A stretch of DNA of 49,220 bases from positions 1 to 49,220 of the forward strand of contig JAHBMJ010000381.1 in NCBI GenBank assembly GCA_018398765.1, read 5' to 3'. The notes under the pieces are model-generated. The model was not told the DNA's origin. It made no database searches and saw only the letters and a list, made by a program, of their open reading frames with translations. Source of the DNA: Chromera velia. Lineage: Eukaryota. Shown here in pieces: positions 1-43,870 of the stretch; the stretch's first letter is position 1, and every line of letters begins with the position of its first letter. A program made the translations under genes and the position numbers.

Positions 1-545
1 ATCAATCACCATGGCAAATGAAAGTGTGACAAGAGTACTTCAGAACACATGGGGTCCATACCACAAGAAGTCAACAGTTAGACACTCAAACAAACAGATT
101 TAGATGAGCCAGAGCAGCATGTCTGTCTCCTCTGTCAACTACATGCTCACACTACACAGCCAGGTAGGGGATCATTTTTTTCAGTCATAACTGCAAAGAT
201 CTGTGGCTCGGGCTGCTACAGTCCAGTGAGGAACGGGATAGGTAGGCAACGAAAGCAGCTGTGTATGCACAGACTGGTACTCCTCTCTGAGCGATTTTGG
301 ACTCTATGCATGCATGTGTATTCCTGCAGGCAGGCAGTCCCCCATACGACTCTGAAAAGCCAGGCGGAGCCTCTGTTTGTATGTTTAGTGGGTTTTTCCC
401 CTGTATGTTCATGCATACAGAGACAGTGCATCCACACAGACTGTAACCGTTTCTGATTGTTTGATGTTCACGATATTTAAACCTTTCGGACCTCTCTGTG
501 GTAGGAATATGTACGCTAGTGTTCATTATCGGTATGGCCTGGCGT
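1..545. mobile_element. Right part of a MITE-like TIR element (copy 1, truncated by the window start)
   Basis: Near-identical to 1068-1612 (offset 1067). Ends in the TIR 518-544 AGTGTTCATTATCGGTATGGCCTGGCG, where homology to copy 2 stops. Confidence 0.7.
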
Positions 546-875
546 CGTGAGGGGTCATTTCGGGAAGGACTGCGACCTGCATGCCATCAGAGCGTATCTA
601 CATATATTTGCTGCACTGTACTTCAATGCAGGTGTTTGCTGTCTGGCCTCCCTATTTCTTCATTGAAAGAGGTCAGCAACTTGTCAGTATGGTTGACCCC
701 CCCCCCTTTCCACCTGCAGCAGGGCACTCTTAAAGACACTTTCGCTTCTCTCTCACTCACACCATGAAACCCTCTAATTGTTTGAAACCCTTTTTGAGAT
801 AGTGGCACTGCTCTATTTGTTTACCTTTAATGGCTCTGTCATGCCTTTTCTATTTCCTGAAATGACCACTTAGGC

Positions 876-1611
876 CGCGAGGCCATACCGAGAATGAACA
901 CTGCGGGACAACCGTAACACTGCTCTTTGGGGCCATCTAACTCTTTTAATTAATTTTTGACTTGGATGCATCAAACGGTCTATCTGCATGTATGATATTG
1001 TATGTCTGCATGTATTCTGTTTGAAAGTAGCGATGCTTCATATGGGTATGTATTCTCTCTTGTACCAATCAATCACCATGGCAAATGAAAGTGTGACAAG
1101 AGTACTTCAGAACACATAGGGTCCATACCACAAGAAGTCAACAGTTAGACACTCAAACAAACAGATTTAGATGAGCCAGAGCAGCATGTCCGTCTTCTCT
1201 GTCAACTGCATGCTCACACCACACAGCCAGGTAGGGGATCATTTTTTTTAGTTATAACTGCAAAGATCTGTGGCTCGGGCTGCTACAGTCCAGTGAGGAA
1301 CGGGATAGGTAGGCAACGAAAGCAGCTGTGCATGCACAGACTGGTACTCCTCTCTGAGCGATTTTGGACTCTATGCATGCATGTGTATCCCTGCAGGCAG
1401 GCAGTCCCCCATACGACTCTGAAAAGCCAGGCGGAGCCTCTGTTTGTATGTTTAGTGGGTTTTTCCCCTGTATGTTCATGCATGCAGAGACAGTGCATCC
1501 ACACAGACTGTAACCGTTTCTGATTGTTTGATGTTCACGATATTTAAACCTTTCGGACCTCTCTGTGGTAGGAATATGTACGCTAGTGTTCATTGTCGGT
1601 ATGGCCTGGCG
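876..1611. mobile_element. MITE-like non-autonomous TIR element (~736 bp, copy 2)
   Basis: 27-bp terminal inverted repeats: 876-902 CGCGAGGCCATACCGAGAATGAACACT vs 1585-1611 AGTGTTCATTGTCGGTATGGCCTGGCG (2 mismatches). No credible ORF. TSD not clearly resolved (TTA/TTAG lies close to both ends). Confidence 0.7.
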
Positions 1612-1643
1612 TTAGCTCGCGGAGTCGGACGCGGACATCAGGG

Positions 1644-17414: not shown

Positions 17415-17953
17415 CTAAATTCCCTTCATCACTTTCATTCTCGGGTTTTTCCTTTTGTTTTCTTTCTTCTCCTTCTTTTCATCGAATTTGCGTCTTTGTT
17501 CTGGTGTCATCTTCTCATACGCCTCCTCTTCCTCTCTCTTCTTCTCCTGTCTCTTCTTCTCCTTCTCTTCCTCTCTCTCCTTCTCCCTCTCCTTTGCCTG
17601 CGCCTCCATCGCTTTCTTCCTCACGTCCGCCTGCTGCTGCAGCACCCGCGGATCCAGGCGGATGGCGGCCACTCGGTCCACCAAGGTGAAACAAAAGGTG
17701 AGTCCCTCAACGAGCTCCTCCAACCCCCTCCCTCCCCTCACAGCGCCAGGAGGAATCTTCAAGAGGACCTCCACCAGTCGGAGAGGACTACCTGTAGAGA
17801 GTGAGAATGTGGATGTACGAACGTGTCTGTTTGAATGGGTGAATGTGAGTGAGTCTGAGTGTGAGGGAGAGTGTGAGTGTAAGTGAGAGTCTGAGTGAGA
17901 AAAATCGTGAAGATGGGCATCTCTCTCCCTTGTCTTTTTCTCCTCCTCTGCCG

Positions 17954-17992
<39 letters not shown>

Positions 17993-18919
17993 GCAGAAAG
18001 AAAGGACGGAAGAACGAACACACAAAACACGAACACACCACGAACGAAAAAACAAAAGAACGAAAGACGGAACCGAAGGAAGGAAGAGAGAATGGAACGA
18101 AGAGAGAAGGGAAGGGAAGAAAGAAACAAAAAAACAAACAAAGACCGATACCACACTGGGTCAATGGAAAGACCTCAAAGGATTTCAACAAAAAAAACAA
18201 GGAGAAATGTAAGTATGGAGAAGAGCAAAAACAAAACCGACCCGAGAGAGACCCCGCGATCGATGACGACCTCTCCGCAGAAGCCGAGACCCCTGCTCCT
18301 GACATGTTCAGACCAGAAGAGGATGGCGAGGTCTGTCTCTGCAGTGCTGTTCCAGGAGAGGGTGCAGAGGGCATCCCCACGGCCTCAGAGGAGACGATCA
18401 AGTGCTGGATCAAACGCTCGTGCTCGGCCAGACCTTTCACAATCTGCACGGAGGGAGAGAGACACGCGGGGGGCGGGCAGAGCAGTCGGCATTCATCAAG
18501 CAACACTCGGGGACAAGTGAGCAATTAGGTCCTGTGCACACCCGCCGAATCGAGATGGTCTGAATTTTGACTTCCCTTTCACTCTTTACACAAACCGGAA
18601 TGGAGCTTGACGGCCCCCCTCGATCACCCCAGAGGTCTCTGTGCTCTCTTTCATTATCTGCATGCGTCTTCACTCTCCCTCTTTAATTTTCTTCCGTCAA
18701 CATCAGAACAAACGAGAGAGACGAACAGAACAAATCGACTGAGTGAGACGGGAGCATCGATTTTGCACGTGTGTGTCACTTTGAGTGAGAACGATTCCAA
18801 CATGAATAAGCGAAATGTCGGCAGCTCCCCCGTTCTTTACTCCACCCGACTGTCCAAGCAATTGGACTGCGAGCCCTCTCTCAACGAAAAGAATGGTGAA
18901 GACGGGCATTCCTCTCCCT

Positions 18920-19001
<82 letters not shown>

Positions 19002-20748
19002 CTTGCGTGTATGTGTGTCTGCGTGTGAAGGTGTGAACCCCCCCCCCCACTCTTGCTCTCTGGCCTTTACACGAACAGGCACACCCACTCACGGTAATCA
19101 AACTGTAGCACGGGCAACAGCAAAGAGGATACAAGCAGGGAAAGAAATGGCAAAGATACACGAATGAAGCGAATCACTCGAGACATGCACAGAAAAAAAA
19201 AACACCAAAAAGACTACCGACCGGGTCAGAGAGTACCTTCATCATGCCCTCATGGTTGTCTGCCAGAACTGACAGAGACGATGGGAGGCCTGCAAACCCA
19301 AACCCAAACAAACAGACAAACAGCAAAAGGCCAATTCCAGTAACTCATCGGGATACTTGCAGCCCCCCCTGACATTCAAGTGAGGGAGGACAGGGCGACA
19401 GAGGAGCGGAGAGAGAGATCGAGAGAGAGAAGGATTTGACAGATCTGTGGGGAATCTCGTTCTTATTAACAACCAGTGGACGAAAAACCAAAAAGCCGAC
19501 TATGCTCACAGACTGTATGTTTTTCTTCCCTCTCTTCTTCTTTGCACCGACACAGCCAAAAAGGAAAGGAAGAAGAGACCAAAGGTGGGTAGGATAAACA
19601 AACAAAAAGCTCACGATTCAAGCCAACAGGCAGACAGATAGACATAGACAGACCTGCCCTGGTTCTGCTCCTTGCAAGGTCCTTCAGGTCTATACAGTCC
19701 TCATGGAGCTTCTTCACGCTCTTGTTGCGACAGACCTGCAAGCACATGTACGGACATGGAGTGACGGGCTGCGGCAAAAGAACTTAAGTGTACAGCTGGC
19801 TCGAGAATTTGTGGAAAACAAAAACTGAATGCTTTCTCGCGGCACAGTTCATCTTCTTTCCTCATAAGTCCACTGTTCTTCCTTGCATGCACCTCTGCAA
19901 TACAGGTCTCAAATCCTCACCCTCCCATTTGGATGGTCTTTACTCCTTTTCCCGTTCACTTTCGTCGGGGCTAAAACAAAAGAAATCGAATTGGAAAAAA
20001 CAAAGCGAAAGTCGCAGTCACGCAGAGCGACACGCACACACCGACTCACCGCCACAACTAGTGGGTCCATCTGAGAGAGCTCAAATCGCAGTCGCAACAT
20101 GTCCCCCTGTGCCTGCCCGATGAGGCTCAAAAACACACTGGTCAGAAGATCCTGTCGGGGCTTCAGTTCGAAGGTACCAGTCACACAGTAGCAGTTCCTT
20201 CTCCCTGTGCAAAAAAATTCGTATGAGTCGTAGGAGACAAGCTCAAGAAAGTTCCCGCCCTCTTTGGTGTCCACGAAAGAGAAATTCTCTGCAAAAGACT
20301 CCCGAAGTCCCCTGGCGAGGCCTTCTGCTATTTTCTGATTCTCCCCGCTGCCCGTAAAGATCAGAACCAACGAGAGCACACACCACCCGAGGACCAAACT
20401 TTCACGCCAATAGAACGACATCATATCCTCAAAACTCATCGGAGGAGGGCGCGAATGTCCACCCGGTCGTCCCTGTCCCTGCGCCCCCCCTCCAGAAGGC
20501 ATACTGAAGGGAGGGTCGCCGTCTCCTCCGTATGAATTTTGTGTGTCCTCTTCAATGAACTGCACCGTGCCACCAGAACTGCTCTCATCCTCAGCAGCCG
20601 CTACAGGCAGAGGAAAAAAAGAAAAAGCTGGAGCTCTGCCCTGTCCTAAGGCATCCCGACTCAGGTCTGCGCAAAAGAAAATTACCACACAGACAACGCA
20701 GGACAGCAGAAACAGACGGGGTCGTAGTCCACGAGACGTCGTTTTCAT
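17415..20748 (-). CDS. CCDC47: PAT complex subunit CCDC47 (calumin/DUF1682) homolog, 5-6 exons, ~477 aa
   Basis: Exons 20748-20050, 19735-19654, 19289-19237, (18866-18846 microexon), 18443-18242, 17791-17415. N-terminal hydrophobic segment; TM followed by GSGENQKIA; YEFFCTGRRNC...ELKPRQDLL; charged coiled-coil tail ending KMTPEQRRKFDEKKEKKENKRKNPRMKVMKGI. Confidence 0.88.
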
Positions 20749-26800: not shown

Positions 26801-28592
26801 AGAGAACAACAGAATGTAGGGGAAAGAAGATCGAATACCTCATGCGGAGTCCTTCCTCCCACCTGCATGGACATGCGCGGGAAGAAAAAGAAGGGAACAG
26901 AGACCAAGAAGATGGAGAGAAGCTGATTCTCTCTTTTGTCGGTCTATCTGAATTCATTCTTTTGTCAATCAAAAAACGCTTCCCCGTGCTCCATGGACTG
27001 ATGTCGGTCTGTCCCTCTGACCCTCCTTCCTTCCTTCAGACAGCAGCGAGGGGGCGATCGAAGAACTCCTCTACGAATTCGAGGAGAAAGAGGAGGAGTC
27101 AAACGGGGCGTGAGCAAAGAAAGAAATGAAAATGGAATGACGAAGCCCCCAAACTCACTGCATGAAGTCAGAAAAAGAAGAGAAAGGTTGAGGGCATGAT
27201 GAGGGAATGAAGAGAAGAAGGAAGCAAAACCAGCAGATAGAGTGGGGGACGATCGACCCAGGGGGAGCACGTCAGTCAGGCGCCCCTTGATTTAAGAATT
27301 CATACTCCATTTCTCTTTCTTCCACCGTCTCTCTTGTTTGCTCGGTCGGAGAGACAACCTGTGTGTCTGTCTGTTTGTGTCTCAACCTGTCTGTCCGTCC
27401 GAGCTTTTTCTAGGCCATTCTTCCTCGCCGTCTTCCACTCACCGTTTTTGCGATCCTTCCTGCCCTCGCTCCTCATAAATTTCAATGAGGCCGAGACGTG
27501 ACTGCAGCAGCAGTATTGCTCTTAGACCTCTATGGTCAGAAGGAGATGAAGGCCATCCGTCGATCGACTCTTTTGCATGTCCATTACATGGTGCGTCGTC
27601 TTGAGGTGCCTCGTGGTGACTCAAACATGTGGTAGATGCTCTGCAGGCGCAGGCATTTCTGGGCAGTTTGTGACAACAGGCAGATTGATGCAAAGGAGGA
27701 GAGGAGCAAACAGGAACAAGTGAAGGGGGGCAAAGAAGTCACCCCGAGCGGGAGAGACACAACGGAAGAAGAGAGGGAGGGAACATGTTGGCATGGATTA
27801 TGACTGCACAGACGTTGTGTGGCTGGCTGGCTACCGAATTCACGAAAGAAGGAGAAAGAGGTTGGCAGAGAGAGAGAGTTCCGTGACGCTTCCGGTCCCT
27901 CTGCCTGCCCATCTCTTTTCTTCTCTTCCTTCTTTCGAGTTACCTGTGAAGTTGTCCTGCCTGCATGCAAGCACAATTTGATCCACATGCATCCAAGCTG
28001 AGCAAGACTCGGACAAGTTCCCGGTCTACGAGTTGTCCAGGTGTTTGCTTCTTCTAAGTCATTCTTTCTGCCTGCACTTCGATTAACGCATTTGTTGATC
28101 GCTTTCTCTCTGAGTTGCCGGGCGATGAGAAGAGAAAGCAAAGAAAGCAATGTTGATGCAAGTGCTTCCTTTTTTCATCATCTGTGCAAGTGTGGTGGTT
28201 AGCTGCTGATGCTTCAAAGAGAAAGACCTGTTGACGCTACACGTACAGTGTCTTAAAAAAAAAGAGTGAACATTGAAAAACCACTCACTTGGACTAGGAC
28301 TTGGCTAGGGACTTGGATAGACTTGGAATGCCAAGTGGCTGAAAGACGCGCTACAAGCGGGCTTTATACACGCTGGTGTGCAAATAACTACATAAAATAT
28401 GAGAACTTCCATTTAAAATGGATCCGTTCATACCTATAGGCTATAGCTAAGATCGAAAAGGGCATTTGAAGGTGGTATCACAGTGCTTACAACATCAAAT
28501 TCTACATCAAATTGTCATCAATTAAGGTGTTTACTCATGATATAATTATACTGCTAGTACCCATATAAAAAAATCCTGAAATTGGTCTTAAC

Positions 28593-30274
28593 TAGGGATA
28601 TCTATCGTATTGTATCGGTATCGTATCGGAATTTAACGTTCCAAAAAAAGGGGGTATCTTTGATAATTTTGATGCTGAAATAAAATTTTTAGCATACGAG
28701 GTAGTGACTATGTTTGATTTGATTTGATTTGATTTGATTTGATTTAAGTTAGGGCTTAAGCTCAAATCAAATATCCAGTCAGGGAGGACCTAGTGTTTAA
28801 AGACCTATCAAATACGATCAAATATTTGATCAATATGACTTTCAACCTCAAATATGAAGGTCCCGAAAAAACTTTTGTAAGTACCGATCCGTCACGCATG
28901 CTGATTCAAATGAAAAAACCTAAATCTTGATGGTTTGCTCTCAAAAAAAAAAGTTTTGAGCTGCATTGAAATTGATGTTTCACCCCCTTTTACTTCATGC
29001 AGAGGTAAACCGATCAGCTGAACGTTTTCCCGAACAGCTGTGTTGACTTTTCTGGTGCTGGAACATCTTTTACGGCCCTCTTTTTGAGCGTCTGCAAACA
29101 TTTTACACCCCATAAAGACATGTCACACAATCCGACAAGGTCGAACGGGAAGAAGGAGGCATTTGTTTTTAGAGCCGGGTACGCAAAAAAAATATGGTCC
29201 ATGCAAAAGGGGGCAAATGTGATTTAGTGTCAGATGAAAATATAAGGAGCTGAGGGGGAAAGAGAAACTATTTGCGGCTGTGAGTATACAGCAGCGGCAA
29301 CCAGTTCTTTTCAAACCCACCTCATCAATCAGCATGGCTTGACGATCACGTCTGACAAACAAATAGCAAACGTGTGCGCGGTTCTCGTCTTTTTCACCCA
29401 GGAGCACCCACTCCTGGAAAGCCGAAAAGCCAGAGAAAAAGCTCTCAGCAGCTCCCACCACCGATCGATTCGATTCATATTGAAGAAAGTGATCATGAAA
29501 AAGAGGAAAAGGAAGTGCCATAAAGCTGAGTGATTGTCACCTCAATTTTGGTACGTGCTCTAACTTTATCGTATCAACAAAAAGTCATATACAATTTCAA
29601 ATCTATTAATTTTACGTTCTTAATCTCTATTAGTACTAGAGTGAGTCTCAGTGACTAGTGTATATACACTGCCACACAGGCATATTTTTTTTACGGAACT
29701 GATAAGTTATAATTTTATATATATTTTTTTAAATTTTTGAAACACACATCAGAAATGTTCTGATAACTATTGTCATGAGAAAAATGATCAGAGTGACAGT
29801 AAGTCAGTGACTCAGTGAGGAACTCTAAGAGGTTAACCTCAAATCTTACCTCAAATATCAAATATTTGAGGTTGAAGCTCAAATCAAATCAAATCAAATC
29901 AAATCAAATCACATCAAATCAAATATAATCAAATCAAACATGGTCACTAGTACGAGGCTAAAACCTATAGTGCAAACAGTATCATTCGTCAAACTAAAAA
30001 CTTTTTGTAAAAACCTCATGTTTTTAAAGAGTCAACTTTACTTAGAAAATGGGCTTCGAAACGTTTAGAAGGCCAAACTACCCCCCTAACCCCCCCTTTT
30101 AAAAGAGTCAACACATCATCAGATTAGTAGTAGTCCTTCACAAATATTCACATGCAAGCTCTAAGCAGGCCGATACTAACCAATACTCGGCCGCTCGAGA
30201 AAGAACCAATAGTCAATACTTCGATACCGATACCAATATAATACGATACGATATCGATACAATAGCTATCCCTA
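28593..30274. mobile_element. hAT-type MITE 1 (426 bp when empty), interrupted here by a nested element
   Basis: TIR TAGGGATATCTATCGTAT ... ATACAATAGCTATCCCTA; perfect 8-bp TSD GTCTTAAC (28585-28592, 30275-30282); subterminal GATAC-like repeats. Confidence 0.88.
28702..29949 (+). mobile_element. Non-autonomous hAT element 2 (1248 bp) with a decayed BED zinc-finger remnant
   Basis: TIR TAGTGACTATGTTTGATT / AATCAAACATGGTCACTA; subterminal (TTTGA)n/(TCAAA)n arrays; 8-bp TSD ATACGAGG/GTACGAGG; empty site GTACGAGG at 36664-36671 in copy B. 29192-29341 translates IWSMQKGANVI*CQMKI*GAEGERETICGCEYTAAATSSFQTHLINQHGL. Confidence 0.9.
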
Positions 30275-30305
30275 GTCTTAACACTATAGTCTTAATATCT
30301 AGCTC
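30132..30305. repeat. 174-bp direct repeat flanking the LINE (partner 34880-35053; in copy B 36846-37019 and 41589-41757)
   Basis: AGTCCTTCA...ATCTAGCTC is present immediately on both sides of each LINE copy. Confidence 0.9.
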
Positions 30306-33300
30306 AGTTAGTTAGTTAGTTAGTTAGTTAGTTAGAAGATGCCTAACCCCAGTAACTGTTGGAGCGCTAAGCTCCCGGGCGGCATATACATGCATGGTTG
30401 TTGTTTGTTAAGTCGCCGGTGGAGTTGATCAGTTAATCACTTTCTAGAATAGAAAGAGAAGCATCAAAGAGACAGAGCGTAGAAGCGATCGAATGACATT
30501 ACAGATAAAGAGTTCAGATATACTTGCACCGGGGAGTGGACAGTTACAATCATTTAAATTAATGGATTCCAGCTCAGCCAGGCAGTGCAGGAATTCTCTT
30601 TCATCCAGCTACTTGGCACATGAAGAAAGTCTATGCATGAAGTCATCAACATACTGAATACAAGAATCATGTACACAGAGTTTGTGGTCGCTACATTCAA
30701 AAGACAGAGCACTGCTTTCGCCTTGTGGTTTAAATAAGAGCAGACGTAAGAAACCGAACAGAGAGCTGTCGGTTACTATGAGAACAGATCGAGGGAGAGC
30801 AGAAAAGGAGTAGAGACTAGAGGCGGATTTATTGTAAAGAAGAAACATAAACATGCGATGAGAGGAGGGAAAAGCTTGTTGAAGGGGGGTGAGCTTGGCA
30901 AGAGGAGGGAAATGTGAAGAAGCGATATTAGCCCCCGCCCGCCGCGTGCAGACCTCTTCCATAACTGTATGTCTAGCTCTGCCCTTAAAAAAGAGAGAGC
31001 CGGTTCCATGAACTCTCTGTCACTGCTGTCCGCTGGTGCTAGGGTGTTGCAGCACTCCCACCCCTAACGAACAAACAAAATCCAGACCAGCCCAACGAAG
31101 CAGCCACAAGGAGGCTCTCAAAAACTCTGGACAAGTGTTTCTCTTCCAGCTTGGCACGTAGCATTGCAGCGGGAACGGTATGCATGGTTTGTGAGAGCGA
31201 GCACCACCAGTCGGCCACTTTAGAGCAAAGCAGGGCTTTTGCAGGAAGCAGGCCGAAAATACACAGGGAGGGCAAACGAAGACTGCGAGCAGGCAGACGG
31301 CCAGACCAGCGTGCAAAACGGAGCTGCAAAGCATCGATTGCAAGAAGATCGGCATCACAAAGAGGGAAGGATTCGAGGCAGTACAGTATAACAGAGGACC
31401 AACATGCTTTAAAAATAGTCATTTACGTATCTACACTGAGGGAATCTATGCTGGCAATCAGACCAAACACAGCCCCCAGCGTGCAGGAGGCCGAAGCAAT
31501 ACGCAATTCAACTGTCTCACTGAGGCTTCCCCCCTCAAAGAACAGGCACCCCAGGTACTTGTATTCCGTTGCCTATTCAACCTCTTTCCCTTCATATTGT
31601 AACACCACCACACTGGAGCTTTTCCCAAATGCAGAGGCAGACAGGCGAAGAATCTTTGTCTTTTTCAGATTAACTGTAAGTCTCCATTCTTTGCAATACT
31701 TCTCGAGAGCAGAGAATTTCTTTTGAAGGTCTGAGACGGAATGGCCAAGAAAGCAGAGATCGTCAGCATAACTCAAACTGTCCAGGATACAATCATCTAG
31801 CAAAACTCGCTCCGGCTCACTTTCTGGCTCCTCTCCACTGCCCGTTTCCATTTCAGAATCTAATATGTCTGCCCGCTCTCGCTCTACTGCCTCGCTGGTA
31901 TGCCTTGCCTCGCTCTTCTAGCTCGCTCTTGCTTGCAGAACACACACGGGGGAGATCATTTATGTACAAAAGAAAAAGAATAGGCGAGAGGGCATCCCCT
32001 TGCTTCACTCCAGTGCCCTCCCAAAAATGTAGAGAGTCCCCGTCAACCTTGCCCCATACCTCTCTGTACATTTCACAGATCATGCAGATGTCTGCCTCAC
32101 TCACACCTTCATTTCTCAGTTTCTGAATTAACTTTGCTCTCGGCACAGTGTCAAACGCCTTTGAAAAGTCAACAAAACCTGCTAACAGAGCCTTTCTTTT
32201 CTTTTTACATGAAGAAACAACAGAGACAAGAGCACCGACCCCCTCTCTGAGGCTCGTTCCCACCCCTTCACGGAACCCTAGCTGTTTGAAGTTAAGACAG
32301 ACCTGGGAATGCATACGGCAGTCCATCAGGAGGCCGAAAAGTTTTGCAAAAGGGTTTACAACATGGATTGGTCTCCATTCGTTAGGAGAGGGGGAAGCAG
32401 CCTGAGGGCCTTTCAGAACTAGGCAAATGTGCAAAACGTTCCATGAAGGAGGCCAGCAAGCATGAATATGCATCAGGGCTAGGCATCAAATTAAATAAAA
32501 CAAAAAGTAAAAAGCGGGAGAGAGCAGATTTGGCAAAGCAGAGATCTAGCTGTGCAAAAGAGATGCCTTCAAGGCCAGTAGCTTTCTTCTTGTTCATTTT
32601 CTTCAGGTGGGAAGAGATCTGGTGAAAAGAGAAGGGCAGAGCAGAGGGGTGGAAGGGAGGAGAGGCAGGGGGATGGACCAAAGGGAGAGGCTCCTTGTTC
32701 AGATCTTCAAAAACACCCGCCCAATAGTTCAAAAATATGCGGGAGGACGGGCATGATACACCACCAGCCGACGAGGCGGCTTTCTTCTTCCTTTTCCAAA
32801 GGGAGAGAGGATCCTTGAGGAATTCTTCTTGAACCCTCTGTGCTTCTTTCTTCTTCTAAGCAGCCTGTTTGCGTTTAAAGAGGCTACGGCGGACCCGGAG
32901 TAGTCTCTGAAGGCGATCGAATTCCAATCCTCTCCCACCCATATCTCTCACCAACTTCCAAACGCGGTCCGCCTCTCTTACTTCCTTTTGTATGGACTTA
33001 CATTCTTCATCAAACCAAGCCTCTTTCATTCTACGCTTAACCCCCAACCCAAACCTTGCTCCGTTCTTTTTCAGTTTCACAGGCCCAACGAGCAGTCGAG
33101 ACCACTCCTGGACAAATCTGAGGAGGCAAGCATGACTGTCCTTGGCCCCCCCTTGCGGAGAAAAGAGGGGATCAGGCGAGTCAGGGGGGCAGAAGAGAAA
33201 GGGCGGGAGGATTCGGGAGGGGGAGGAGGGACAGGCGGCTCTACAAAAGGCTCAATCTAGTTGTGATATTCCCATAGACCCAGCCAGCGCTATTCTACGA

Positions 33301-34879
33301 ATCTTTTGACTGCAGCTGCCAACAGTGCAAGCTCTTCATCTGATATGGGGGTGGAGCGGTTAGAACAGAAGAGCAAAGGGCATTCAGAGAGGTTCTGGTG
33401 GGGCAGAAGGGCGTCTTCTTGCTCTGGTTTGATTGAAGGGGGGCAGAGGGAAAAAGAGACAGATGCGTGGTCAAGGGAGGCAATACCATCAAATTTAACC
33501 TTCTAATCAGCGATCTTCTTAACAACAGAGGGGTCAGTTAACATATAATCTATGACGGAGGTGGGCTTTGACATCTGCGACTGTCTGGAGTAATGCGTAC
33601 AGAGACCAGGGAAGTCAAACTCTTTTCCACCCACTTTTTCTTTCAATCCGTTCAGGGGGACAAGGTTCGAATCGCTGCAGAGCTGAATAAAATTCTTTCC
33701 GCAGGGCTTGACTTCTTGTATACATTCAGAGGACCGTTTGAACAACGGTGTGTCTGCTTCAGTTTTGGGCCCCTCCCCTACAATACTACCATCTCCATTG
33801 CCTCCCCCCTCAAAAGGCTCCTCACTGCTACCAGACTCATTGGGCAGAAGAAGGAGATCTGTACAGGACCAGAGAAGATTCTCGGGTAAAAGGGAGCCTA
33901 TATGTGTGTTGCAGTCCCCAACCACAACTCTATCGACATCCAGAGGGACCCCTCCAAAAAGGTTACTCAAATGGCCAGAGACCTTGTTGTCTCTGTGATC
34001 TAACCAGGAGCCAAGCAGGTAGACGCCAAAGATGTGAACCCTTCTAGAACCCCCTAACAGAACTTTTGTTTCCATTATACTGGGGCCGACCAACAAGATT
34101 TCAGGTTTCAATTCGCTCCATCTTTCTTCTTAAACTAACATACAAACTCCCCTAGTTTTCAATTCCCTGTCATGTGCTGCCCTACGCGTGCCCAACTGCC
34201 GCCGGTACCATTCTCTGTAACAGTCACTGAAATTCTTTCCCTTCCACCCCTTACACAAAACGTCCCTCATAACCTCTGACATATCTGTCAAGATTACAAT
34301 ATTGCAATCAATCTCATTTAGCCAACAAGCGAGGGAACCGTCCTCTTCCCTGGCCTTCAGGCCGGCAACATTTAGGGTAACAATCTTTACTCTCCCATCC
34401 CGGGCCCTAATTGCAGCTAAAACCTTCCTTTCTACCATCTTCCTTCTCTCTCTCCAAAAAGCTCTTCTCAATTCTTCCGAATGCTTCAAATTATCTGCTG
34501 ACTCCCACAAATACGAAAAAGCAGGGCCCCAATTTTAATCCATATAATACTCCCTCTACTCCCCTTCATTGATGTGAGTGTCTAACACCTACACCACCTC
34601 CCACTCCGTCTCCAAAGCAACCAAGCCCCCTGCTTCCCCCGGCTGATCTAGCTGAGACTCTCGGGACGCGACGCCTGCCCTCTTGCTTTCTCTTCTTTTC
34701 TTCCCCCTTCCTTTTCTACGATTCTTCCTCTCTGCCCCACATAAAAGAGACGGATCCAAATAAAAAGACTCTAGAGAGGCTTAGCTGCAGGGGGGGGAAG
34801 AAGACAAAAAGTCAGGTACGATATCAGAGGCAAGAGGGGAGAGAGTCGAGTCGGAAAGAGAGGAGAGGGACTTACCTGC
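30306..34879 (-). mobile_element. Non-LTR retrotransposon (LINE), chromodomain-APE-RT, inactivated, copy A
   Basis: APE motifs KIVTLNVAGL, IFGVYL, VVVGDCNTHIG, IDYML, SLDH. RT motifs WRPIHVVN, QLGFR, FVDFSKAFDTV, GVKQGDALSPILF, YADD. 3' tail (CTAA)n at 30306-30335. In-frame stops and frameshifts. Confidence 0.95.
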
Positions 34880-36562
34880 AGTCCTTCATAAATATTCATA
34901 TGCAAGCTCTAAGCAGGCCGATACTAACCGATACTTGGCCGTTTGAGAAAGAACCGATAGTCGATACTTCAATACCGATACCGATACGATACGATACAAT
35001 ATCAATACGATAGCTATCCCTAGTCTTAATACTATAGTCTTAATATCTAGCTCTCTCTCTCTATATATATATATAATATATATACATATAGTATTAATTT
35101 ATATTGATTTTTTCTTTATTTGGTCTAGTAGTATTCAGTATATGACTCGAAAAAACCTGGTATTAGGCTGGTAATAAACTGTATAAGGTAGTGACCATAA
35201 TATATAACCGAGCAGGCCGGCCAACTTGAAGGACGTCTGATGTGCTAGCTGATGCTTCTTTTTAAGTTTAGAAGCTGGACCTAGAGCTGGATATCGGATA
35301 TTCGCTAGGATATTCCAATCATATTCGGCAGTGAATTGACACTAAACTCGGCATTAGGGCCAGGGCTAGCCTAAGGGCCAATCCTCTGGACATCGTACAT
35401 AACTTCTTATCGGAGGCCTAGTCGGAGGCTCATCTTATTAATAATATTAAGTATAAATCCTATATTTATTATGCTAAAATAATTTTTGTGAATCACATTG
35501 CTAGTTACATTGATAATTATAATATCTCAGCCAAGCTAATTATCATGGTGCGTCGTCTTGAGGTGCCTCGTGGTGACTCAAACATGTGGTAGATGCTCTG
35601 CAGGCGCAGGCATTTCTGGGCAGTTTGTGACAACAGGCAGATTGATGCAAAAGAGGAGAGGAGCAAACAGAAACAAGTGAAGGGGGGCAAAGAAGTCACC
35701 CCGAGCGGGAGAGACACAACGGAAAGAAGAGAGGGAGGGAATATGTTGGTATAGATTATGACTGCACAGATGTTGTGTGGCTGGCTGGCTATCGAATTCA
35801 CGAAAGAAGGAAAAAGAGGGTGGCAGAGAGAGAGAGTTCCGTGACGCTTCCGGTCCCTCTGTCTGCCCATCTCTTTTCTTCTCTTCCTTCTTTCAAGTTA
35901 CCTGTGAAGTTGTCCTGCCTGCATGCAAGCACAATTTGATCCACATACATCCAAGCTGAGCAAGACTCGGACAAGTTCCCGGTCTACGAGTTGTCCAAAT
36001 GTTTGCTTTTTCTAACTTAAAGTCATTCTTTCTCAGACTGCCTGTACTTCGATTAACGCATTTGTTGATCGCTTTCTCTCTGAGTTGCCGGGCGATGAGA
36101 AGAGAAAGCAAAGAAAGCAATGTTGATGCAAGTGCTTCCTTTTTTCATCATCTGTGCAAGTGTGGTGGTTAGCTGCTGATGCTTCAAAGAGAAAGACCTG
36201 TTGACGCTACACGTACAGTGTCTTAAAAAAAAAGAGTGAACATTGAAAAACCACTCACTTGGACTAGGACTTGGCTAGGGACTTGGATAGACTTGGAATG
36301 CCAAGTGGCTGAAAGACGCGCTACAAGCGGGCTTTATACGCACTGGTGTGCAAATAACTATATAAAATATGAGAACTTCCATTCAAAATGGATCTGTTCA
36401 TACCTATAGGCTATAGCTAAGATCGAAAAGGGCATTTGAAGGTGGTATCACAGTGCTTACAACATTAAATTCTACATCAAATTGTCATCAATTAAGGTGT
36501 TTACTTATGATATAATTATACTGCTAGTACCCATATAAAAAAATGCTGAAATTGGTCTTAAC

Positions 36563-36988
36563 TAGGGATAGCTATCGTATTGTATCGGTATCGTATCGGA
36601 ATTTAACGTTCTAAACAAAGGGGGTATCTTCGATAATTTTGATACTGACATAAAATTTTTAGCGTACGAGGCTAAAACCTATAGTGCAAACAGTATCATT
36701 CGTCAAACTAAAAACTTTTTGTAAAAACCTCATGTTTTTAAAGAGTCAACTTTACTTAGAAAATGGGCTTCGAAACGTTTAGAAGGCTAAACTACCCCCC
36801 TAACCCCCCCTTTTAAAAGAGTCAACACATCATCAGATTAGTAGTAGTCCTTCACAAATATTCACATGCAAGCTCTAAGCAGGCCGATACTAACCGATAC
36901 TCGGCCGCTCGAGAAAGAACCGATAGTCAATACTTTGATACCGATACCAATATAATACGATACGATATCGATACAATAGCTATCCCTA
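36563..36988. mobile_element. hAT-type MITE 1, uninterrupted copy (426 bp)
   Basis: TIR TAGGGATAGCTATCGTAT / ATACAATAGCTATCCCTA; TSD GTCTTAAC at 36555-36562 and 36989-36996. Confidence 0.9.
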
Positions 36989-37019
36989 GTCTTAACACTA
37001 TAGTCTTAATATCTAGCTC

Positions 37020-40000
37020 AGTTAGTTAGTTAGTTAGTTAGTTAGTTAATTAGTTAGAAGATGCCTAACCCCAGTAACTGTTGGAGTGCTAAGCTCCCGG
37101 GCGGCACATATATGCATGGTTGTTGTTTGTTAAGTTGCCGGTGGAGTTGATCAGTTAATCACTTTCTAGAATAGAAAGAGAGGCATCAAAGAGACAGAGC
37201 GTAGAAGCGATCGAATGACATTACAGATAAAGAGTTCAGATGTACTTGTACCGGGGAGTGGATAGTTACAATCATTTAAATTAATGGATTCCAGCTTAGC
37301 CAAGCAGTGCAGGAATTCTCTTTCATCCAGCTACTTGGCATATGAAGAAAGTCTATGCATGAAGTCATTAACATACCGAATACAAGAATCATGTACACAG
37401 AGTTTGTGGTCGTTACATTCAAAAGACAGAGCACTGCTTTCGCCTTGTGGGTTAAATGAGAGCAGACGTAAGAAACCGAACAGAGAGCTGTCGGTTACTA
37501 TGAGAGCAGATCGAGGGAGAGCAGAAAAAGAGTAAAGACCAAAGGTAGATTTATTGCAAAGAAGAAACACAAACATGCGATGAGAGGAGGGAAAAGCTTG
37601 TTGAAGGGGGGTGAGCTTGGCAAGAGGAGGGAAATGTGAAGAAGCGATATTAGCCCCCGCCCGCCGCGTGCAGACCTCTTCCACAACTGTATGTCTAGCT
37701 CTACCCTTAAAGAAGAGAAAGCCAGTTCCATGAACTCTCTGTCACTGCTGTCCGCTGGTGCTAGGGTGTTGCAGCACTCCCACCCCTAATGAACAAACAA
37801 AATCCAGACCAGTCCAACGAAGCAGCTGCAAGGAGGCTCTCGAAAACTCTGGACAAGTGTTTCCCTTCCAGCCTGGTACGCAGCATTGCAACAGGAACGG
37901 TATGCATGGTTTGCGAGAGCGAGCACCACCAACCGGCCACTCTAGAGCAAAGCAGGGCTTTTACAGTAAGCAGGCCGAAAATACACAGGGAGGGCAAACG
38001 AAGACTGCGAGCAGACAGACGGCCAGACCAGCGTGCAAAACGGAGCTGCAAAGCATCGATTGCAAGAAGATCAGCATCATAAAGAGGGAAGGATTCGAGG
38101 CAGTATAGTGTGACAGGGGACCAACACGCTTTAAAAATAATCATCTGCGTATCTACACTGAGGAGATCTATGCTGGCAATCAGACCAAACACAGCCCCCA
38201 AGGCGCAGGAGGCCAAAGCAATATGCAATTCAACTATCTCACTAAGGCTTCCCCCCTCAAAGAACAGGCACCCCAGGTACTTGTATTCCGTTGCCTATTC
38301 AACCTCTTTCCCTTCATATTGTAATACTACCACACTGGAGCTTTTCCCAAATGCAGAGGCAGACAGGCAAAGAATCTTTGTCTTTTTCAGATTAACTGTA
38401 AGTTTCCATTCTTTGCAATACTTCTCGAGAGCAGAGAATTTCTTTTGAAGGTCTGAGACGGAATGGCCAAGAAAGCAGAGATCGTCAGCATAACCCAAAC
38501 TGTCCAGGATACAATCATCTAGCAAAACTCGCTCCGGCTCGCTTTCTGGCTCCTCTCCACTGCCCGTTTCTATTTCAGAATCTAATATGTCTGCCCGCTC
38601 TCGCTCTACTGCCTTGCTGGTATGCCTTGCCTCGCTCTTCTAGCTCGCTCTTGCTTGTAGAACACACACGGGGGAGATTATTTATGTACAGAAGAAAAAG
38701 AATAGGCAAGAGGGCATCCCTTTGCTTCACTCCAGTGCCCTCTCGAAAATGTAGAGAGTCCCCGTCAACCTTGCCCCATACCTCTCTGTACATTTCACAG
38801 ATCATGCAGATGTCTGCCTCACTCACACCCTCATTTCTCAGTTTCTGAATTAACTTTGCTCTCGGCACAGTATCAAATGCCTTTGAAAAGTCAACAAAAC
38901 CTGCCAACAGAGCCTTTCTTTTCTTTTTGTACGAAGAAACAACAGAGGCAAGAGCACCAACCCCCTCTCTGAGGCTCGTTCCCACCCCTTTACGGAACCC
39001 TAGCTGTTTGAAGTTAAGACGGACCTGGGAACGCACACGGCAGTCCATCAGGAGGCCAAAAAGTTTTGCAAAAGGGTTTACAACATGGATTGGTCTCCAT
39101 TCATTAGGAGAGGGGGAAGCAGCCTGAGGGCCTTTCAGAACTAGGCAAATGCGCAAAACGTTTCATGAAGGAGGCCAGCAAGCATGAATATGCATCAGGC
39201 TAGGCATCAGGTTAAATAAAACAAAAAGTAAAAAGCGGGAGAGGGCAGATTCGGCAAAGCAGAGATCTAGTTGTGCAAAAGAGATGCCTTCAAGGCTAGC
39301 AGCTTTCTTCTTGTTCATTTTCTTCAGGTAGGAAGAGATATAGTAAAAAGAGAAGGGCAGAGCAGAGGAGTGGAAGGGAGGAGAGGCAGGGAGATGGACC
39401 AAAGGGAGAGGCTCCTTGTTTGGATCTTCAAAAACACCCGCCCAATAGTTCGAAAATGCGCGGAAGGACGGGCATGATACACCACCAGCCGATGAGGCGG
39501 CTTTCTTCTTCCTTTTCCAAAGGGAGAGAGGATCTTTGAGGAATTCTTCTTGAACCCTCTGTGCTTTTTTCTTCTTCTAAGCAGCCTGTTTGCGTTTAAA
39601 AAGGCTACGGCGGACCCGGAGTGGCGATCGAATTCCAATCCTCTCCCACCTACATCTGTCACCAACTTCCAAACGCGGTCTGCCTCTCTCACTTCCTTTT
39701 GCATGGACTTGCATTCTTCATTAAACCAAGCCTCTTTCATTCTACGCTTAACCCCCGACCCAAACCCTGCTCCGTTCTTTTTCAGTTTCACAGGCCCAAC
39801 GAGCAGTCAAAACCACTCCTGGATAAATCTGAGGAGGCAAGCGTGACTGTCCTTGGCCCCCCCTTGCGGGGAAAAGAGGGGATCAGGCGAGTCAGAGGGG
39901 TCAGAAGAGAAAGGGCGGGAGGATTTGGGAGGAGGAGGAGGGACAGGCGGCTCTACAAAAGGCTTAATCTAGTTGTGATATTCCCATAGACCCGGCCAGC

Positions 40001-41588
40001 GTTGTTCTGTGAAACTTTTGACTGCAGCTGCCAATGGTGCAAGCTCTTCATCTGATATGAGGGTGGAGCGGTTAGAACAGAAGAGCAAAGGGCATTCAGA
40101 GATGTTCTGGTGGGGCGGAAGGGCGTCTTCTTGCTCTGGTTTGATTGGAGGGGGGCAAAGGGAAAAAGAGACAGATGCGTGGTCGAGGGAGGCAATGCCA
40201 TCAAATTTAACCTTCTAATCAGCGATCTTCTTAACAACAAAGGGGTCAGTCAACATATAATCTATGACGGAGGTGGGCTTTGACATCCGCGACTGTCTGG
40301 AGTAATGCGTACAGAGACCAGGGAAGTCAAACTCTTTTCCACCCACTTTTTCTTTCAATCCGTTCAGGGGGACAAGGTTCGAATCGCTGCAGAGCTGAAT
40401 AAAATTCTTTCCGCAGGGCTTGACTTCTTGTATACATTCAGAAGACCGTTTGAACAACGGTATGTCTGCTTCAGTTTCGGGCCCCTCCCCCATAATACCA
40501 CCATCTCCATTGCCTCCCCCCTCAAAAAGCTCCTCACTGCTACCAGACTTATTGGGCAGAAGGAGGAGATCTGTATGGGACTAGAGAAGATTCTCAGATA
40601 AAAGGGAGCCTGTATGCGTGTTGCAGTCCCCAACCACAACTCTATCGACATCCAGAGGGACCCCTCCAAAAAGGTCACTCAAATGGTCAGAGACCTTGCT
40701 GTCTCTATAATCTAACCAGGAGCCAAGCAGGTAGACGCCAAAGATGTGAACCTTTCTAGAACCCCCCAACAAAACTTTTGTTTCCACTATACTGGGGCCG
40801 ACCAACAAAATTTCAGGTTTCAATTCGCTCCATCTTTCTTCTTAAACTAACACACAAACTCCCCCAGTTTTCAATTCCCTGTCATGTGCTGCCCTACGCG
40901 TGCCCAACTGCCGCCGGTACCATTCTCTGTAACAGTCACTGAAATTCTTTCCCTTCCACCCCTTGCACGAAACGTCCCTCATAACCTCTGACATATCTGT
41001 TAAGATTACAATATTGCAATCAATCTCATTTAGCCAACGAGCGAGGGAACCGTCCTCTTCCCTGGCCTTCAGGCCGGCGACATTTAGGGTAACAATCTTT
41101 ACTCTCCCATCCCGGGCCCTAATTACGGCTAAAACCTTCCTTTCTACCATCTTCCTTCTCTCTCTCCAAAAAGCTCTTCTCAACTCTTCCGAATGCTTCA
41201 AATTATCTGCTGACTCCCACAAATGCGAAAAAGCAGGGCCCCAATTTTAATCCATATACTACTCCCTCTGCCCCCCTTCATTAATGCGAGTGTCTAACAC
41301 CTGCACCACCTCCCACTCCGTCTCCAAAGCAACCGAGCCCCCTGCTTCTCCCGGCTGATCTGGCTGAGACTCTCGGGACGCGATGCCTGCCCTCTTGCTT
41401 TCTCTTCTTTTCTTCCCCCTTCCTTTTCTACGATTCCTCTCTGCCCCACATAAAAGAGACGCATCCAAACAAAAAGACTCTGGAGAGGCTTGGCTGCAGG
41501 GGGGGGGAGAAGACAAAAAGTCAGATACGATATCAGAGGCAGGAGGGGAGAGAGTCGAGTCGGAAAGAGAGGAGAGGGACTTACCTGC
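37020..41588 (-). mobile_element. Non-LTR retrotransposon (LINE), chromodomain-APE-RT, inactivated, copy B
   Basis: Same APE and RT motifs as copy A (ORFs 40842-41222, 40581-40823, 38575-39156, 38295-38525); (CTAA)n tail at 37020-37056. Confidence 0.95.
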
Positions 41589-43361
41589 AGTCTTTCATAA
41601 ATATTCATATGCAAGCTCTAAGCAGGCCGATACTAACCAATACTTGGCCGTTCGAGAAAGAACCGATAGTCGATACTTCGATACCGATACCGATACGATA
41701 CGATATCAATACGATAGCTATCCCTAGTCTTAATACTATAGTCTTAATATCTAGCTCTCTCTCTCTCTCTATATATATAATATATATACATATAGTATTA
41801 ATTTATATTGATTTTTTCTTTATTTGGTCTAGTAGTATTCAGTATATGACTCGAAAAAACCTGGTATTAGGCTGGTAATAAACTGTATAAGGTAGTGACC
41901 ATAATATATAACCGAGCAGGCCGGCCAACTTGAAGGACGTCTGATATGCTAGCTGATGCTTCTTTTTAAGTTTAGAAGCTGGACCTAGAGCTGGACATCG
42001 GATATTTGCTAGGATATTCCAATCATATTCGGCAGTGAATTGGCACTAAACTCAGCATTAGGACCAGGGCTAGCCTAAGGGCCAATCCTCCGGACATTGT
42101 ACATATCTTTTTATCGGAGGCCTAGTCGGAGGCTCATCTTATTAATAATATTAAATATAAATCCTATATTTATTATGCTAAAATAATTTTTGTGAATCAC
42201 ATTGCTAGTTACATTGATAATTATAATACTTCAGCCAGGCTAATTATCATAGACTTAAGCAGTTACCACTGTTTAGTTGTATCTGGAGACTTCCTCGTCT
42301 CCGAGGAAGGAGTATATTGCTAACCTAGGCTAATAGCCTAGGCATAATAATTCTCGGGCACTGCTAGTCGTCTATCCTTACCTAGTTTGTGAGAAGGAGG
42401 TAAAGAGAGAAGAAAGGACCATAGAAAAGATGTTAGTCTGCTATACAGAGGCACCCTGCGTATAGAAGACTGGGCACGCGAGCCGCTGAAACAGTTATGA
42501 GTAGCCCAGAGCGACTCGACCCTGTTTCCCCCCAAGGCTCTGTTGCTGTATAGCAATCTCTAATATCTCTATCCTATTGGTGGTCCCTAGGCGACTGTTA
42601 CCCCCTACCTCATGTAAGCTTGGTGTAAAGGAGGAATAGAGTTGGGATACTACTAGTATAGGTTTAATATATTTTAGTTGTATGGTTATCACCAGAGCCT
42701 TATTAGTGGAAGTACTGTGGAACTACCAATAAACAAGACCTTTGGTATATATGTCTGCAACAATTGTCGAAACATATAGGGTGGAGAGGGAGGGTAAAAG
42801 GAAATACCTATGGACCGCGAAGCCAGACGAAGAGGGCCCAAGTTCGTATGGCTCGAAAAACATTCGAATGAGTAGGCCGCCTAGTGAAAACAAACCCCAC
42901 GAAGTCTCTCCTCGACTTGAACTAATTTGCCTTTCTTGAAACCTTGGAGCGACTCTATTTTTTGGAGACTGCCAATTTTATTGTTTTACTCGCATATGTA
43001 TGCTTTGCGGGGCCATTAACGTAGCGACGTGCCCCGGCCTTACGGTGCTGCGCGCGGTGGGCTCCGCCACCCACTATCTTATGCGAAACGCGCTGTGTCT
43101 TAAGAGATAAAGGGTTCTAGCTCGCCCTGCCCGACTCACGCTAGGACTCACGCCTCCCCAGACCCTAACTAAAGATAGTGGATTGCTCCCGTCTGTGCCC
43201 TACGCTATATAAAGGAGAGCCCTCGGCTGCGCTTCACAGATGAATCTGCTAGTGGATTGAATTATAAAAAATTCTAGAAAAATATAACTTATAGTTTGAT
43301 CTAGTAGTTTGATCAGCGTTGTAAAGCATTGATTATAGTATAATTCAATCTAGAACTCAAT

Positions 43362-43870
43362 ATGATGATGATGATGTGATGATGATATATGGGGTTAAAG
43401 CCGGTGAGCCGTATAGACTCTGGCCAACCTAGAGCGTCATACATAGAGTTAAACTTTCGACTTAGGCCCCACTGGGGTAAATTGAATCGAAGGGAGCCTG
43501 ACAGGGGTGGGGAGGCGGATGGAAGTGGAGGGTGGCTCCACCTCTAAGCAAACAGGCTTTTGCTTCATCTGGTAGTTCTCTTACAGGCTGAGTTACAACA
43601 CGCTCTCTATCCCACCCTTAAGACGATCGAGGACTGCCTGCATTTCATATAGCTGTCGAGCGAGTTTCTTTGAGAAGTGCTTCGCAGTTACTCGCATTCT
43701 TTCAATTTCTTTCAAATTTTTTATATGTACGGGCCTAGGCAGTGTAGGCACGGGCAGTTGGATGGACGGTTGTACATGCTGTCTCGATCATATGAGACTC
43801 ACTGTATGAGCCTGTATCAAGCAGTCCCAACCAAGCACACCCAGAAGCACACGTGCCCGGAATGCACTGC
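43362..43870 (-). mobile_element. Degenerate LINE 3' end with (ATC)n tail
   Basis: (GAT)n tail followed by ATATGGGGTTAA, as at 6445 and 48396. The minus strand near 43770-43865 translates CIPGTCASGC...SESHMIETAC, a CCHC-like knuckle. The 5' boundary is unknown. Confidence 0.5.

What the first reader, a model, noticed from the sequence alone, without database searches (positions are those of the whole stretch)
30481..37742. RIP-like C>T hypermutation of repeats in an apparently non-fungal genome
Seen (hand alignment of 30481-31020 with 37203-37742, 540 bp): 25 substitutions, 24 of them C/T or G/A transitions. Taking C/G as ancestral, 12 are CpA/TpG, 8 CpT/ApG, 2 CpG, 2 an ambiguous CG>TA doublet, and 0 CpC. 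Both copies carry derived T/A alleles on both strands. The MITE pair at 1-545/1068-1612 shows the same CpA bias, TE stop codons are mostly TAA/TAG at plausible Gln/Trp positions, and old repeats are TpA-rich, while neighbouring single-copy genes are intact. Established: this spectrum typifies repeat-induced point mutation in fungi, whereas ordinary 5mCpG decay gives CpG-dominated changes. Inference: a repeat-targeted mutagenic genome defence, or dense non-CG methylation with deamination, in a protist, which to my knowledge is undescribed.
Basis: partly seen in the sequence, partly recalled or inferred. Interest (0 to 1): 0.85.

Follow-up and report, generated by a model that had tools for sequence, protein, structure and literature searches.

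The report
C-to-T decay of Chromera transposons
In Chromera velia, an alga related to malaria parasites, duplicated transposon DNA has diverged almost only by C-to-T changes, fastest at CG and next at CA steps, likely from an undescribed cytosine-methylation system on repeats rather than classic fungal RIP, which is odd because one published survey lists no standard DNA methyltransferase in this species.

Summary
The counts are real. The window is Chromera velia, so it is non-fungal. The 540-bp pair lies inside a 6.7-kb tandem duplication carrying a dead LINE. Three repeat pairs differ by 260 transitions and 18 transversions. Other genomic copies show the direction is C>T/G>A (30 of 34 polarisable transition rows).

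The CpA-dominant reading does not hold per site: CpG 15.2% > CpA 10.4% > CpT 4.4% and CpC 4.1%. Standard RIP indices are not met on the LINEs, and one stretch is mutated in one copy only (15:0). CpA excess over CpC/CpT is real (p=8e-10). Genes and introns show no matching TpA gain, but no polymorphism control in unique DNA was obtained.

Best reading (0.5): CG plus CA-leaning methylation of transposon chromatin, followed by deamination. Two things keep an active mutator alive: a modest short-range strand coordination (p=0.0015, one pair) and a published table giving Chromera only four DNMT2 genes. The scan noted similar CG+CA decay in a fungus and a dinoflagellate, not in Chromera.

The parts
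27583..28701 (.). Segment X: first 1.1 kb of copy 1 of a 6.7-kb tandem duplication. In its gene-proximal part (27583-28369) it carries 0 of the 15 derived transitions.
28702..29949 (.). 1.25-kb high-copy element with terminal inverted repeats and an 8-bp target-site duplication. It is present in copy 1 only; the site is empty in copy 2, so it inserted after the duplication. The left target-site copy has a G>A change at a CpG (28694).
29950..35546 (.). Segment A: rest of copy 1. It is 95.3% identical to B, with 224 transitions and 13 transversions.
30340..34870 (-). Dead non-LTR retrotransposon (LINE), copy A. RVT_1 match; broken by stops and frameshifts mostly shared with copy B; short tandem-repeat tail at about 30306-30336. 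Bounds approximate.
30481..31020 (+).
30132..30305 (+). 174-bp unit flanking the LINE on both sides (also 34880-35053, 36846-37019, 41589-41757). All 16 variable columns are transitions; 6 of 6 singleton alleles are C>T or G>A, 5 of them in TCG.
35539..36671 (.). Segment X': start of copy 2, lying between repeats. It carries 22 of the 26 derived transitions of the X/X' pair.
36664..42250 (.). Segment B: rest of copy 2, with LINE copy B (about 37060-41580, minus strand).
1..1612 (+). 545-bp direct repeat pair (1-545, 1068-1612), the first copy cut by the window edge. 11 of 11 differences are transitions, 8 at CpA. No terminal inverted repeats found.
17418..20748 (-). CCDC47 gene, the taxon marker and compositional control. 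Exon 1 is 100% identical to a UniRef Chromera velia CCMP2878 protein; introns have GC 0.49, TpA o/e 0.31 and CpA/TpG o/e 1.2.

Best explanation
Duplicated transposon DNA in Chromera velia has diverged almost only by C>T/G>A changes, fastest at CpG and next at CpA, and the likely cause is cytosine methylation of transposon-rich chromatin in CG and CA-leaning non-CG contexts, followed by deamination over a long time. Shown here: the spectrum; its direction; neutral accumulation in an already dead LINE; and TpA gain with CpA loss in old repeat DNA but not in neighbouring genes or introns. Inferred: that 5mC exists in this species; that it is confined to repeat domains rather than triggered by pairing of duplicates; and that it is written by a non-canonical methyltransferase (one of the listed DNMT2-like paralogues, or an unlisted orphan such as an orthologue of the Vitrella DNMT4-like protein).
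For: Pooled over three pairs (7,242 aligned sites): 260 transitions, 18 transversions. Per site: CpG 78/513, CpA 98/941, CpT 48/1088, CpC 36/876; CHG 46/716 equals CHH 136/2189. A CG-first ranking is what passive 5mC decay predicts (passages of PMC3318451; PMC4352252). Direction: of 40 rows shown out of 894, 30 have window T/A where most other copies have C/G, 4 are the reverse, 4 are transversions, and 2 were dropped because the other letter was not the majority (binomial p=6e-6). Family-wide places in two DNA runs: 508 transitions/52 transversions and 515/47. Codon positions are hit evenly (48/590, 43/479, 58/567; p=0.46). Position dependence: 15 of 15 transitions in 27583-28369 are derived in the copy inside the repeat cluster (p=6e-5), which fits a chromatin domain better than symmetric pairing. 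In the related dinoflagellate Symbiodinium, CH methylation is low, equal in CHG and CHH, and enriched on transposons (PMC5890265 passage).
Against: No methylation data were seen for Chromera. Supplementary Table 1 of PMC12344493 lists 0 DNMT1/CMT/DIM2/DNMT3/DRM/DNMT4/DNMT5/DNMT6/orphan and 4 DNMT2 for this species, and that paper says DNMT2-only species have undetectable 5mC. The same table gives Vitrella none, while PMC10538959 lists a Vitrella DNMT4-like protein, so the table may be incomplete. Passive decay predicts independent events, yet events 2-49 bp apart in A/B lie on the same strand more often within a copy (140/246) than between copies (107/255; permutation p=0.0015). Genes also show mild CpG depletion (o/e 0.70-0.77), so repeat confinement is not sharp for CpG. 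The 15:0 asymmetry could instead be purifying selection or gene conversion at X.
Confidence: 0.5

Rival explanations
1. An active repeat-directed mutator (RIP-like, or like the mitotic Dim2 process of Zymoseptoria) makes the CpA part, in short one-strand patches, on top of CpG decay.
For: Transition:transversion ratio 14:1 pooled, 17:1 in A/B. CpA is 2.6-fold over CpC/CpT in odds (p=8e-10). Strand coordination under 50 bp appears in both halves of A/B (82/140 vs 59/143; 58/104 vs 47/109); adjacent same-strand share 130/222 against an independent-site null of 0.506+-0.034 (p=0.01). Tuber melanosporum shows CpG-then-CpA and has a RID/Masc1 gene (PMC4352252 Table 2). The sister genus Vitrella has a protein filed as DNMT4-like. 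A 292-bp tandem pair in genic DNA differs by 0 transitions and 3 transversions.
Against: CpG is faster than CpA, whereas Dim2-driven changes were over 98% at CA (PMC8016269). RIP indices on the LINEs are -0.63 and -0.65. One stretch is hit in one copy only. The strand signal fades at 100 bp (p=0.03) and 200 bp (p=0.13), three distances were tried, it is not significant within any single context, and it is absent in X/X' (9/24) and the 545-bp pair (2/4). No DNMT4 is listed for Chromera. The family remains abundant.
Confidence: 0.22
2. This is simply the genome-wide mutation spectrum of Chromera (strongly transition- and AT-biased, CpG>CpA). It is visible in dead repeats because they are neutral, while genes and introns are held at about 50% GC by selection or GC-biased gene conversion.
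For: No direct unique-DNA spectrum was obtained. Genic DNA has mild CpG depletion. AT-rich intergenic islands at 4900-6600 and 15900-17000 have raised TpA (0.82 and 1.0) and were not shown to be repeats.
Against: CCDC47 introns (1,575 unmasked bases) have GC 0.49, TpA o/e 0.31 and CpA o/e 1.2, and fourfold sites of seven exons have GC 0.55, far from what a 30:4 bias would leave. Old repeat flanks have TpA 1.2-1.5 and CpA 0.74-0.76. The X/X' asymmetry and the 292-bp genic pair (0 of 3 transitions) point to regional differences, though both samples are small.
Confidence: 0.2
3. A cytidine deaminase acting on single-stranded repeat DNA or on retrotransposition intermediates (APOBEC-like) makes the changes without methylation.
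For: It would fit the listed lack of DNA methyltransferases and the short strand-coordinated patches. C<->G is the commonest single transversion class among family variants (21 vs 9 A<->T in run X1), a weak hint.
Against: The preference is for the 3' base; the 5' base is flat (7.0-8.9%), whereas known APOBECs read the 5' base (recalled). Both strands of each copy are hit equally, and non-LINE DNA in the duplication is hit too. No deaminase was looked for.
Confidence: 0.08

Closest known systems
Repeat-induced point mutation (RIP) of Neurospora crassa and other Pezizomycotina (RID/DNMT4, DIM-2)
   Same: Near-pure C:G>T:A change in repeats, on both strands and in both copies of a linked duplication; CpA elevated; nonsense codons from Gln/Trp/Arg; genes next door intact.
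   Different: CpG outranks CpA. RIP indices are not reached. One stretch is mutated in one copy only. No RID/DNMT4 is listed for the species. Timing and homology dependence are untested. The host is an alveolate.
CpG-primary, CpA-secondary transposon signature of Tuber melanosporum (PMC4352252, Table 2 and passages)
   Same: Same ranking of contexts in a transposon-rich genome.
   Different: Tuber has RID/Masc1 and Dim2 genes; Chromera is listed with neither.
Dim2-dependent mitotic CA>TA mutation of repeats in Zymoseptoria tritici (PMC8016269, passages)
   Same: Repeat-confined C>T tied to non-CG methylation, with no need for sex.
   Different: There over 98% of changes are at CA and CG is spared; here CG is fastest.
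Transposon methylation with 5mC deamination; Symbiodinium CG plus transposon-enriched CH methylation (PMC5890265, passages)
   Same: A related myzozoan lineage; CHG equals CHH, as in the mutation rates here; CH methylation is enriched on transposons.
   Different: CH methylation there is about 1%, while CpA here mutates at two-thirds of the CpG rate. The LINE pieces scanned here gave no methyltransferase match. No methylome of Chromera was found.

Membership tests
Fungal RIP | Large excess of C:G>T:A transitions in repeats | tested here: met
   260 transitions vs 18 transversions; direction 30:4
Fungal RIP | CpA is the dominant target after normalisation | tested here: not met
   CpG 15.2% > CpA 10.4%, p=0.009
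Fungal RIP | TpA/ApT product and (CpA+TpG)/(ApC+GpT) substrate indices shifted; composite above 0 (criterion recalled) | tested here: not met
   LINE A -0.63, LINE B -0.65; flanks 0.06 and -0.01; 42250-44000 0.21; 3 of 49 1-kb windows above 0
Fungal RIP | Both copies of a duplication are mutated (homology-triggered) | tested here: inconclusive
   A/B symmetric, 107 vs 116; X/X' asymmetric, 0 vs 15 over 27583-28369
Fungal RIP | Strand-coordinated mutation tracts | tested here: inconclusive
   Signal under 50 bp in A/B only, p=0.0015; weaker at 100 and 200 bp; absent in two smaller pairs
Fungal RIP | Unique DNA is spared | tested here: inconclusive
   Composition of introns and fourfold sites says yes; no polymorphism spectrum was obtained
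Fungal RIP | RID/DNMT4 or DIM-2 gene; premeiotic timing; length and identity threshold | not testable with these tools
   No whole genome held. Literature only: DNMT4=0 and DIM2=0 for Chromera; Vitrella DNMT4-like in another paper
Pucciniomycotina TpCpG hypermutation | TpCpG is an outlier over other CpG | tested here: inconclusive
   A/B: TCG 29/130 vs ACG 12/77, CCG 18/115, GCG 11/88; highest but not an isolated outlier; strong in the 174-bp unit only
Methylation-driven decay of transposons | CpG is the fastest-mutating context | tested here: met
Methylation-driven decay of transposons | 5mC present on the repeats and a DNA methyltransferase encoded | not testable with these tools
   No methylome among the 10 runs listed or in the paper listings; table lists DNMT2 x4 only

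The most novel reading that the evidence does not exclude
Chromera velia, the free-living sister of apicomplexans, has its own repeat-directed cytosine mutator. Without DNMT1, DNMT3, RID or DNMT5, a repurposed DNMT2 paralogue or orphan enzyme converts C to T at CpR steps in short one-strand patches of transposon DNA. It would be the first RIP-like genome defence outside fungi.
Probability: 0.2. Interest if true: 0.85.

Novelty: new variant of a known kind. Interest (0 to 1): 0.55.

Why it matters
RIP is described as a fungal process, and a 2022 review says it may well have evolved elsewhere (PMC9246332 passage). My search for 'Chromera velia' with 'repeat-induced point mutation' found 0 papers. 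Even the conservative reading predicts CG and CA methylation of transposons in a species listed with only tRNA-type DNMT2 genes. That would mean either a DNA-active DNMT2 paralogue or a missed orphan enzyme at the base of the apicomplexan lineage. One EM-seq library and a genome-wide repeat analysis would settle it, and the species has about 30 Mb of transposons to analyse (PMC4501334 passage).

Tried and rejected
No whole genome was available, so no genome-wide RIPCAL analysis or methyltransferase/deaminase search was possible. A polymorphism spectrum for single-copy genes was not obtained; that control stays open. Metagenome contigs gave only distant LINEs (26-42% identity, 80 loci kept of 300 relatives), of no use for spectra. 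The run search listed 10 runs, with no library descriptions and no holder on record as RNA. Contig cover of RNA-guessed runs on the LINE is not taken as evidence of expression. An assembly artefact or haplotype collapse is rejected for the spectrum: the copies differ by a transposon insertion with a target-site duplication, and the same bias appears across other copies in two DNA runs, though both may be the source of this DNA. Selection on the LINE ORF is rejected. Plant-like CHG preference is rejected (CHG 6.4% vs CHH 6.2%). 'MITE' for 1-545 was not supported. Pfam gave no endonuclease match for the LINE's upstream frame and nothing for 42251-44001 in six frames; two references and one were out of frame and are uninformative. 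Supplements of PMC9998398 gave no Chromera or Vitrella hit, but files 13-23 of 23 were not searched and may bear on the methyltransferase question. Paper searches listed nothing on Chromera methylation or RIP; only 25 of 4,422 papers were listed, so this is weak.
Full report
Source and anatomy. No whole genome was held. The first exon of a CCDC47 gene matched one protein at 100% identity, labelled Chromera velia CCMP2878 in UniRef, so the window is from a chromerid alveolate and not a fungus. Copy 1 is 27583-35546 and is interrupted by a 1.25-kb inverted-repeat element at 28702-29949. Copy 2 is 35539-42250 and has the empty site, so the insertion came after the duplication. Each copy holds a non-LTR retrotransposon on the minus strand (RVT_1; nearest named relative a Chromera reverse-transcriptase protein at 51%). 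The copies share 4 of 9 in-frame stops, so the element was already dead when duplicated.

The observation. Over the whole 5.6-kb A/B alignment there are 224 transitions and 13 transversions. Pooling A/B, X/X' and the 545-bp pair gives 260 and 18 in 7,242 sites. Differences fall evenly on the three codon positions (p=0.46), so this is neutral decay.

Context. Taking C/G as ancestral, the pooled per-site rates are CpG 78/513 (15.2%), CpA 98/941 (10.4%), CpT 48/1088 (4.4%) and CpC 36/876 (4.1%). CpA exceeds CpC+CpT (odds 2.6, p=8e-10) and CpG exceeds CpA (p=0.009). CHG (6.4%) equals CHH (6.2%). The 5' base has no effect (7.0-8.9%). RIP indices on the LINE copies are -0.63 and -0.65.

Direction. 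Contigs of two DNA runs were laid on 27500-34870. Summed depth on the LINE's 3' end is more than 100 times that of neighbouring low-copy bins and falls toward the 5' end; the tool warns this is not a copy number. Variant places were 508 transitions and 52 transversions in one run, and 515 and 47 in the other; both runs may be the source of this DNA and are not independent. The tool showed 40 of 894 rows, chosen as best supported. In 30 the window has T/A where most depth has C/G, 4 are the reverse, 4 are transversions, and 2 were dropped because the other letter was not the majority (p=6e-6 for 30:4). Contexts of 31 T/A rows, including one of the two later dropped, were CA 12, CG 10, CC 5 and CT 4. 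Of the 27 that lie in segment A, copy B shares the derived base in 12. Among four copies of a 174-bp unit, 6 of 6 singleton alleles are C>T or G>A.

Is it confined to repeats? Only indirect evidence exists, because no polymorphism spectrum for unique DNA was obtained. With microsatellites masked, three gene-rich blocks have TpA o/e 0.35-0.43 and CpA/TpG 1.10-1.23 (a fourth block 0.64 and 1.17). Old flanks of the LINE have TpA 1.2-1.5 and CpA/TpG 0.74-0.76. CCDC47 introns have GC 0.49 and TpA 0.31, and fourfold sites of seven exons have GC 0.55. A 292-bp tandem pair among genes differs by 3 transversions and no transition, but it could be assembly error. Against sharp confinement, genes also have CpG o/e 0.70-0.77.

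Symmetry and clustering. A and B carry 107 and 116 derived changes, but over 27583-28369 all 15 are in the copy inside the repeat cluster (p=6e-5). That fits a chromatin-domain effect, or selection or conversion at X, better than pairing-triggered RIP. Pointing the other way, events 2-49 bp apart in A/B are on the same strand in 140/246 within-copy pairs against 107/255 between-copy pairs (label permutation p=0.0015; p=0.03 at 100 bp; p=0.13 at 200 bp). Adjacent events agree in 130/222 against 0.506 expected (p=0.01). No single context is significant. Both halves of A/B show it; X/X' (9/24) and the 545-bp pair (2/4) do not. I treat it as a lead.

Literature (passages and supplement rows only; no paper was read whole). 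RIP prefers CpA and needs RID or DIM-2 (PMC12543289; PMC4352252). CpG excess alone is read as passive 5mC deamination (PMC3318451). Tuber shows CpG then CpA. Zymoseptoria Dim2 drives mitotic C>T, over 98% at CA (PMC8016269). Symbiodinium has about 1% CH methylation, equal in CHG and CHH and enriched on transposons (PMC5890265). Supplementary Table 1 of PMC12344493 gives Chromera four DNMT2 and nothing else, and the text says DNMT2-only species lack detectable 5mC. The same table gives Vitrella none, while PMC10538959 files Vitrella CEM15752 with diatom DNMT4-like proteins; those are of unknown function and only moderately linked to RID (PMC9998398). No paper in the library held both 'Chromera velia' and 'repeat-induced point mutation', and the listings showed no Chromera methylome. 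Subscription journals are not covered.

Earlier scan notes. None covers this genome or sequence. Notes on a fungus (CG plus CA decay) and a dinoflagellate (CpG not spared) describe similar patterns; they are unchecked leads, and I checked only the Tuber paper one of them named.

Verdict. This is a real, directional C>T erosion of repeats in Chromera with a CpG > CpA signature. It works like methylation-linked repeat decay and partly like RIP, but it fails two tested RIP features and is not filed as RIP. The most likely cause is inferred CG plus CA methylation of transposon chromatin with deamination (0.5). An active mutator (0.22), a general spectrum (0.2) and a deaminase (0.08) remain open. 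Interest 0.55, resting on the CpA component and on the apparent lack of a known DNA methyltransferase.

Noticed in passing
window:28702-29949: Very high-copy 1.25-kb non-coding element with terminal inverted repeats, sub-terminal pentamer arrays and an 8-bp target-site duplication (hAT-like size, recalled). Deepest bins.
   Followed up: partly
window:30132-30305, 34880-35053 (and 36846-37019, 41589-41757): The same 174-bp unit flanks the LINE at both ends in direct orientation, too long for an ordinary target-site duplication. A related short motif occurs inverted at 28591-28632 and 36561-36602. It may be a target repeat or the end of another element.
   Followed up: partly
window:1937-3370 (+): LCIB/C-type beta carbonic anhydrase gene (PF18599) in at least two exons, a carbon-concentrating-mechanism family member in a chromerid.
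   Followed up: no
window:21386-22729 (+): Long exon with a weak DUF3131 match (E 2.5e-6, score above the curated cut-off), a family I recall as mostly bacterial; possible lateral transfer.
   Followed up: no
window:25615-26198: 292-bp head-to-tail duplication differing by three transversions only; a recent duplication or an assembly artefact.
   Followed up: partly
window:27500-28418: A contig of RNA-guessed run X3 covers this stretch with 15 other letters and 6 gap letters and shares one insertion with copy X'; a third locus or another allele.
   Followed up: no
window:4900-6600, 15900-17000, 42250-44000: AT- or TpA-rich islands between genes that look like old decayed repeats; no Pfam match for 42251-44001 in six frames.
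   Followed up: partly
PMC12344493 Supplementary Table 1: Chromera velia is listed with four DNMT2 paralogues and no other DNMT, an expansion of a usually single tRNA methyltransferase (single copy recalled); the Vitrella row conflicts with PMC10538959.
   Followed up: partly
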